DNA from: Candidatus Omnitrophota bacterium
Lineage (GTDB): Bacteria > Omnitrophota > Gorgyraeia > 2-01-FULL-45-10
DNA: 64,000 bases
Direction of reading: 5' to 3'
Assembly (NCBI GenBank): GCA_030695905.1
Contig: JAUYOL010000036.1
Span: 118,814 to 182,813 of the forward strand
The letters are not shown here. A report on this DNA, generated by a model with database tools, continues below.

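What the first reader, a model, noticed from the sequence alone, without database searches (positions are those of the whole stretch)
1..64000. Glycan cluster saturated with radical SAM enzymes (7 cobalamin-binding plus 4 SPASM-like) and 9 methyltransferases
Eleven CxxxCxxC radical SAM genes fall within 64 kb of carbohydrate-biosynthesis genes. They are at 1-667 (partial), 7948, 17327, 24601, 29763, 36861, 41173, 43221, 49624, 60857 and 62679. Seven carry an N-terminal B12-binding domain with the GG-x-H-x-T-x-x-P motif. Class-I methyltransferase genes lie beside or near several of them (pairs such as 17327/16581, 29763/31257, 43221/42301, 49624/48848+48155, and 62679/60857 with 60119/59244).

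Class B radical SAM enzymes are established C-methyltransferases and epimerases at unactivated carbons; GenK, Fom3, TsrM and PoyB/C are examples. One or two per sugar cluster is already unusual, so seven plus four SPASM-type enzymes points to a glycan with multiple radical-installed modifications, plausibly a poly-C/O/N-methylated sugar or nonulosonic acid. The alternative would be a RiPP cluster, but there is no room for a precursor peptide gene.
Basis: partly seen in the sequence, partly recalled or inferred. Interest (0 to 1): 0.85.

Follow-up and report, generated by a model that had tools for sequence, protein, structure and literature searches.

The report, continued
Noticed in passing
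window 3421-4209 (-) and 53388-54101 (-): A papain-like C1 cysteine peptidase and a transglutaminase-core-like protein sit inside the tightly packed glycan operon. Both are thiol enzymes with no obvious role in sugar synthesis.
   Followed up: no
window 1-2453 (-) and L023 10957-16232: A further possible cassette: epimerase, split transketolase (two subunits), class B rSAM, GHMP kinase, nucleotidyltransferase, aminotransferase and epimerase. It suggests a two-carbon branch or a higher-carbon sugar activated through a sugar-1-phosphate. I did not resolve it.
   Followed up: partly
window 51107-52432 (-), residues about 40-60: The N-terminal methyltransferase-like domain of this GT2 fusion lacks the glycine-rich SAM-binding loop. 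The Desulfocarbo and Parcubacteria orthologues have it (VLELGCGKG / VLEIGSGSG). The window copy has a deletion of about 22 residues there.
   Followed up: yes
window 39253-40248 (-) versus L069 7792-8679: The hexapeptide acyltransferase is replaced by a Formyl_trans_N gene at the equivalent position. The neighbouring genes in that block are 68-78% identical to the window. This looks like a swap of the N-acyl group on the same amino sugar.
   Followed up: yes
window 31257-33143 (-) versus L069 16676-18534: The 628-aa protein (Trm112-like zinc ribbon, 2 TM segments, methyltransferase) corresponds to two separate genes of 369 and 257 aa in L069.
   Followed up: partly
L023 16225-17819: The carbamoyltransferase downstream of the window is split into 79-aa and 365-aa pieces with a 257-nt gap. 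This could be a frameshift, a pseudogene or an assembly error.
   Followed up: no
L027 / L028 10001-11596: A 55% identical relative of class B rSAM 29763 sits between the NADH dehydrogenase (nuo) operon and cdaA/DHH genes in 17 contigs. There are no glycan genes within 10 kb.
   Followed up: partly
window 54001-56000: GC rises to 50% over the AsnB gene 54116-56077, against 39-47% in the rest of the window. This is consistent with a mosaic origin of the cluster.
   Followed up: no
window 15783-16241, 17718-18416, 25478-26206, 25858-26427, 28763-29359, 40368-40859 (+): Six plus-strand ORFs of 152-242 aa lie entirely antisense to well-supported minus-strand genes. They are most likely spurious.
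   Followed up: no
window 60857-61912, 36861-38030, 16581-17417, 12866-13906, 13827-14315, 22320-23852: The mechanical ORF starts are longer than the gene calls on the contig (351 vs 281, 389 vs 371, 278 vs 249, 346 vs 318, 162 vs 145, and 510 vs 489 aa). Several apparent long overlaps between genes are therefore artefacts of start-codon choice.
   Followed up: partly
L030 (Parcubacteria-named protein P0144; ENA scaffold) 457-15095: A candidate-phyla-radiation genome carries three class B rSAMs and one SPASM rSAM within 11 kb. Alongside them are an MT-GT2 fusion, methyltransferases and a PMT_2 protein. This is a notable investment for a reduced genome.
   Followed up: partly
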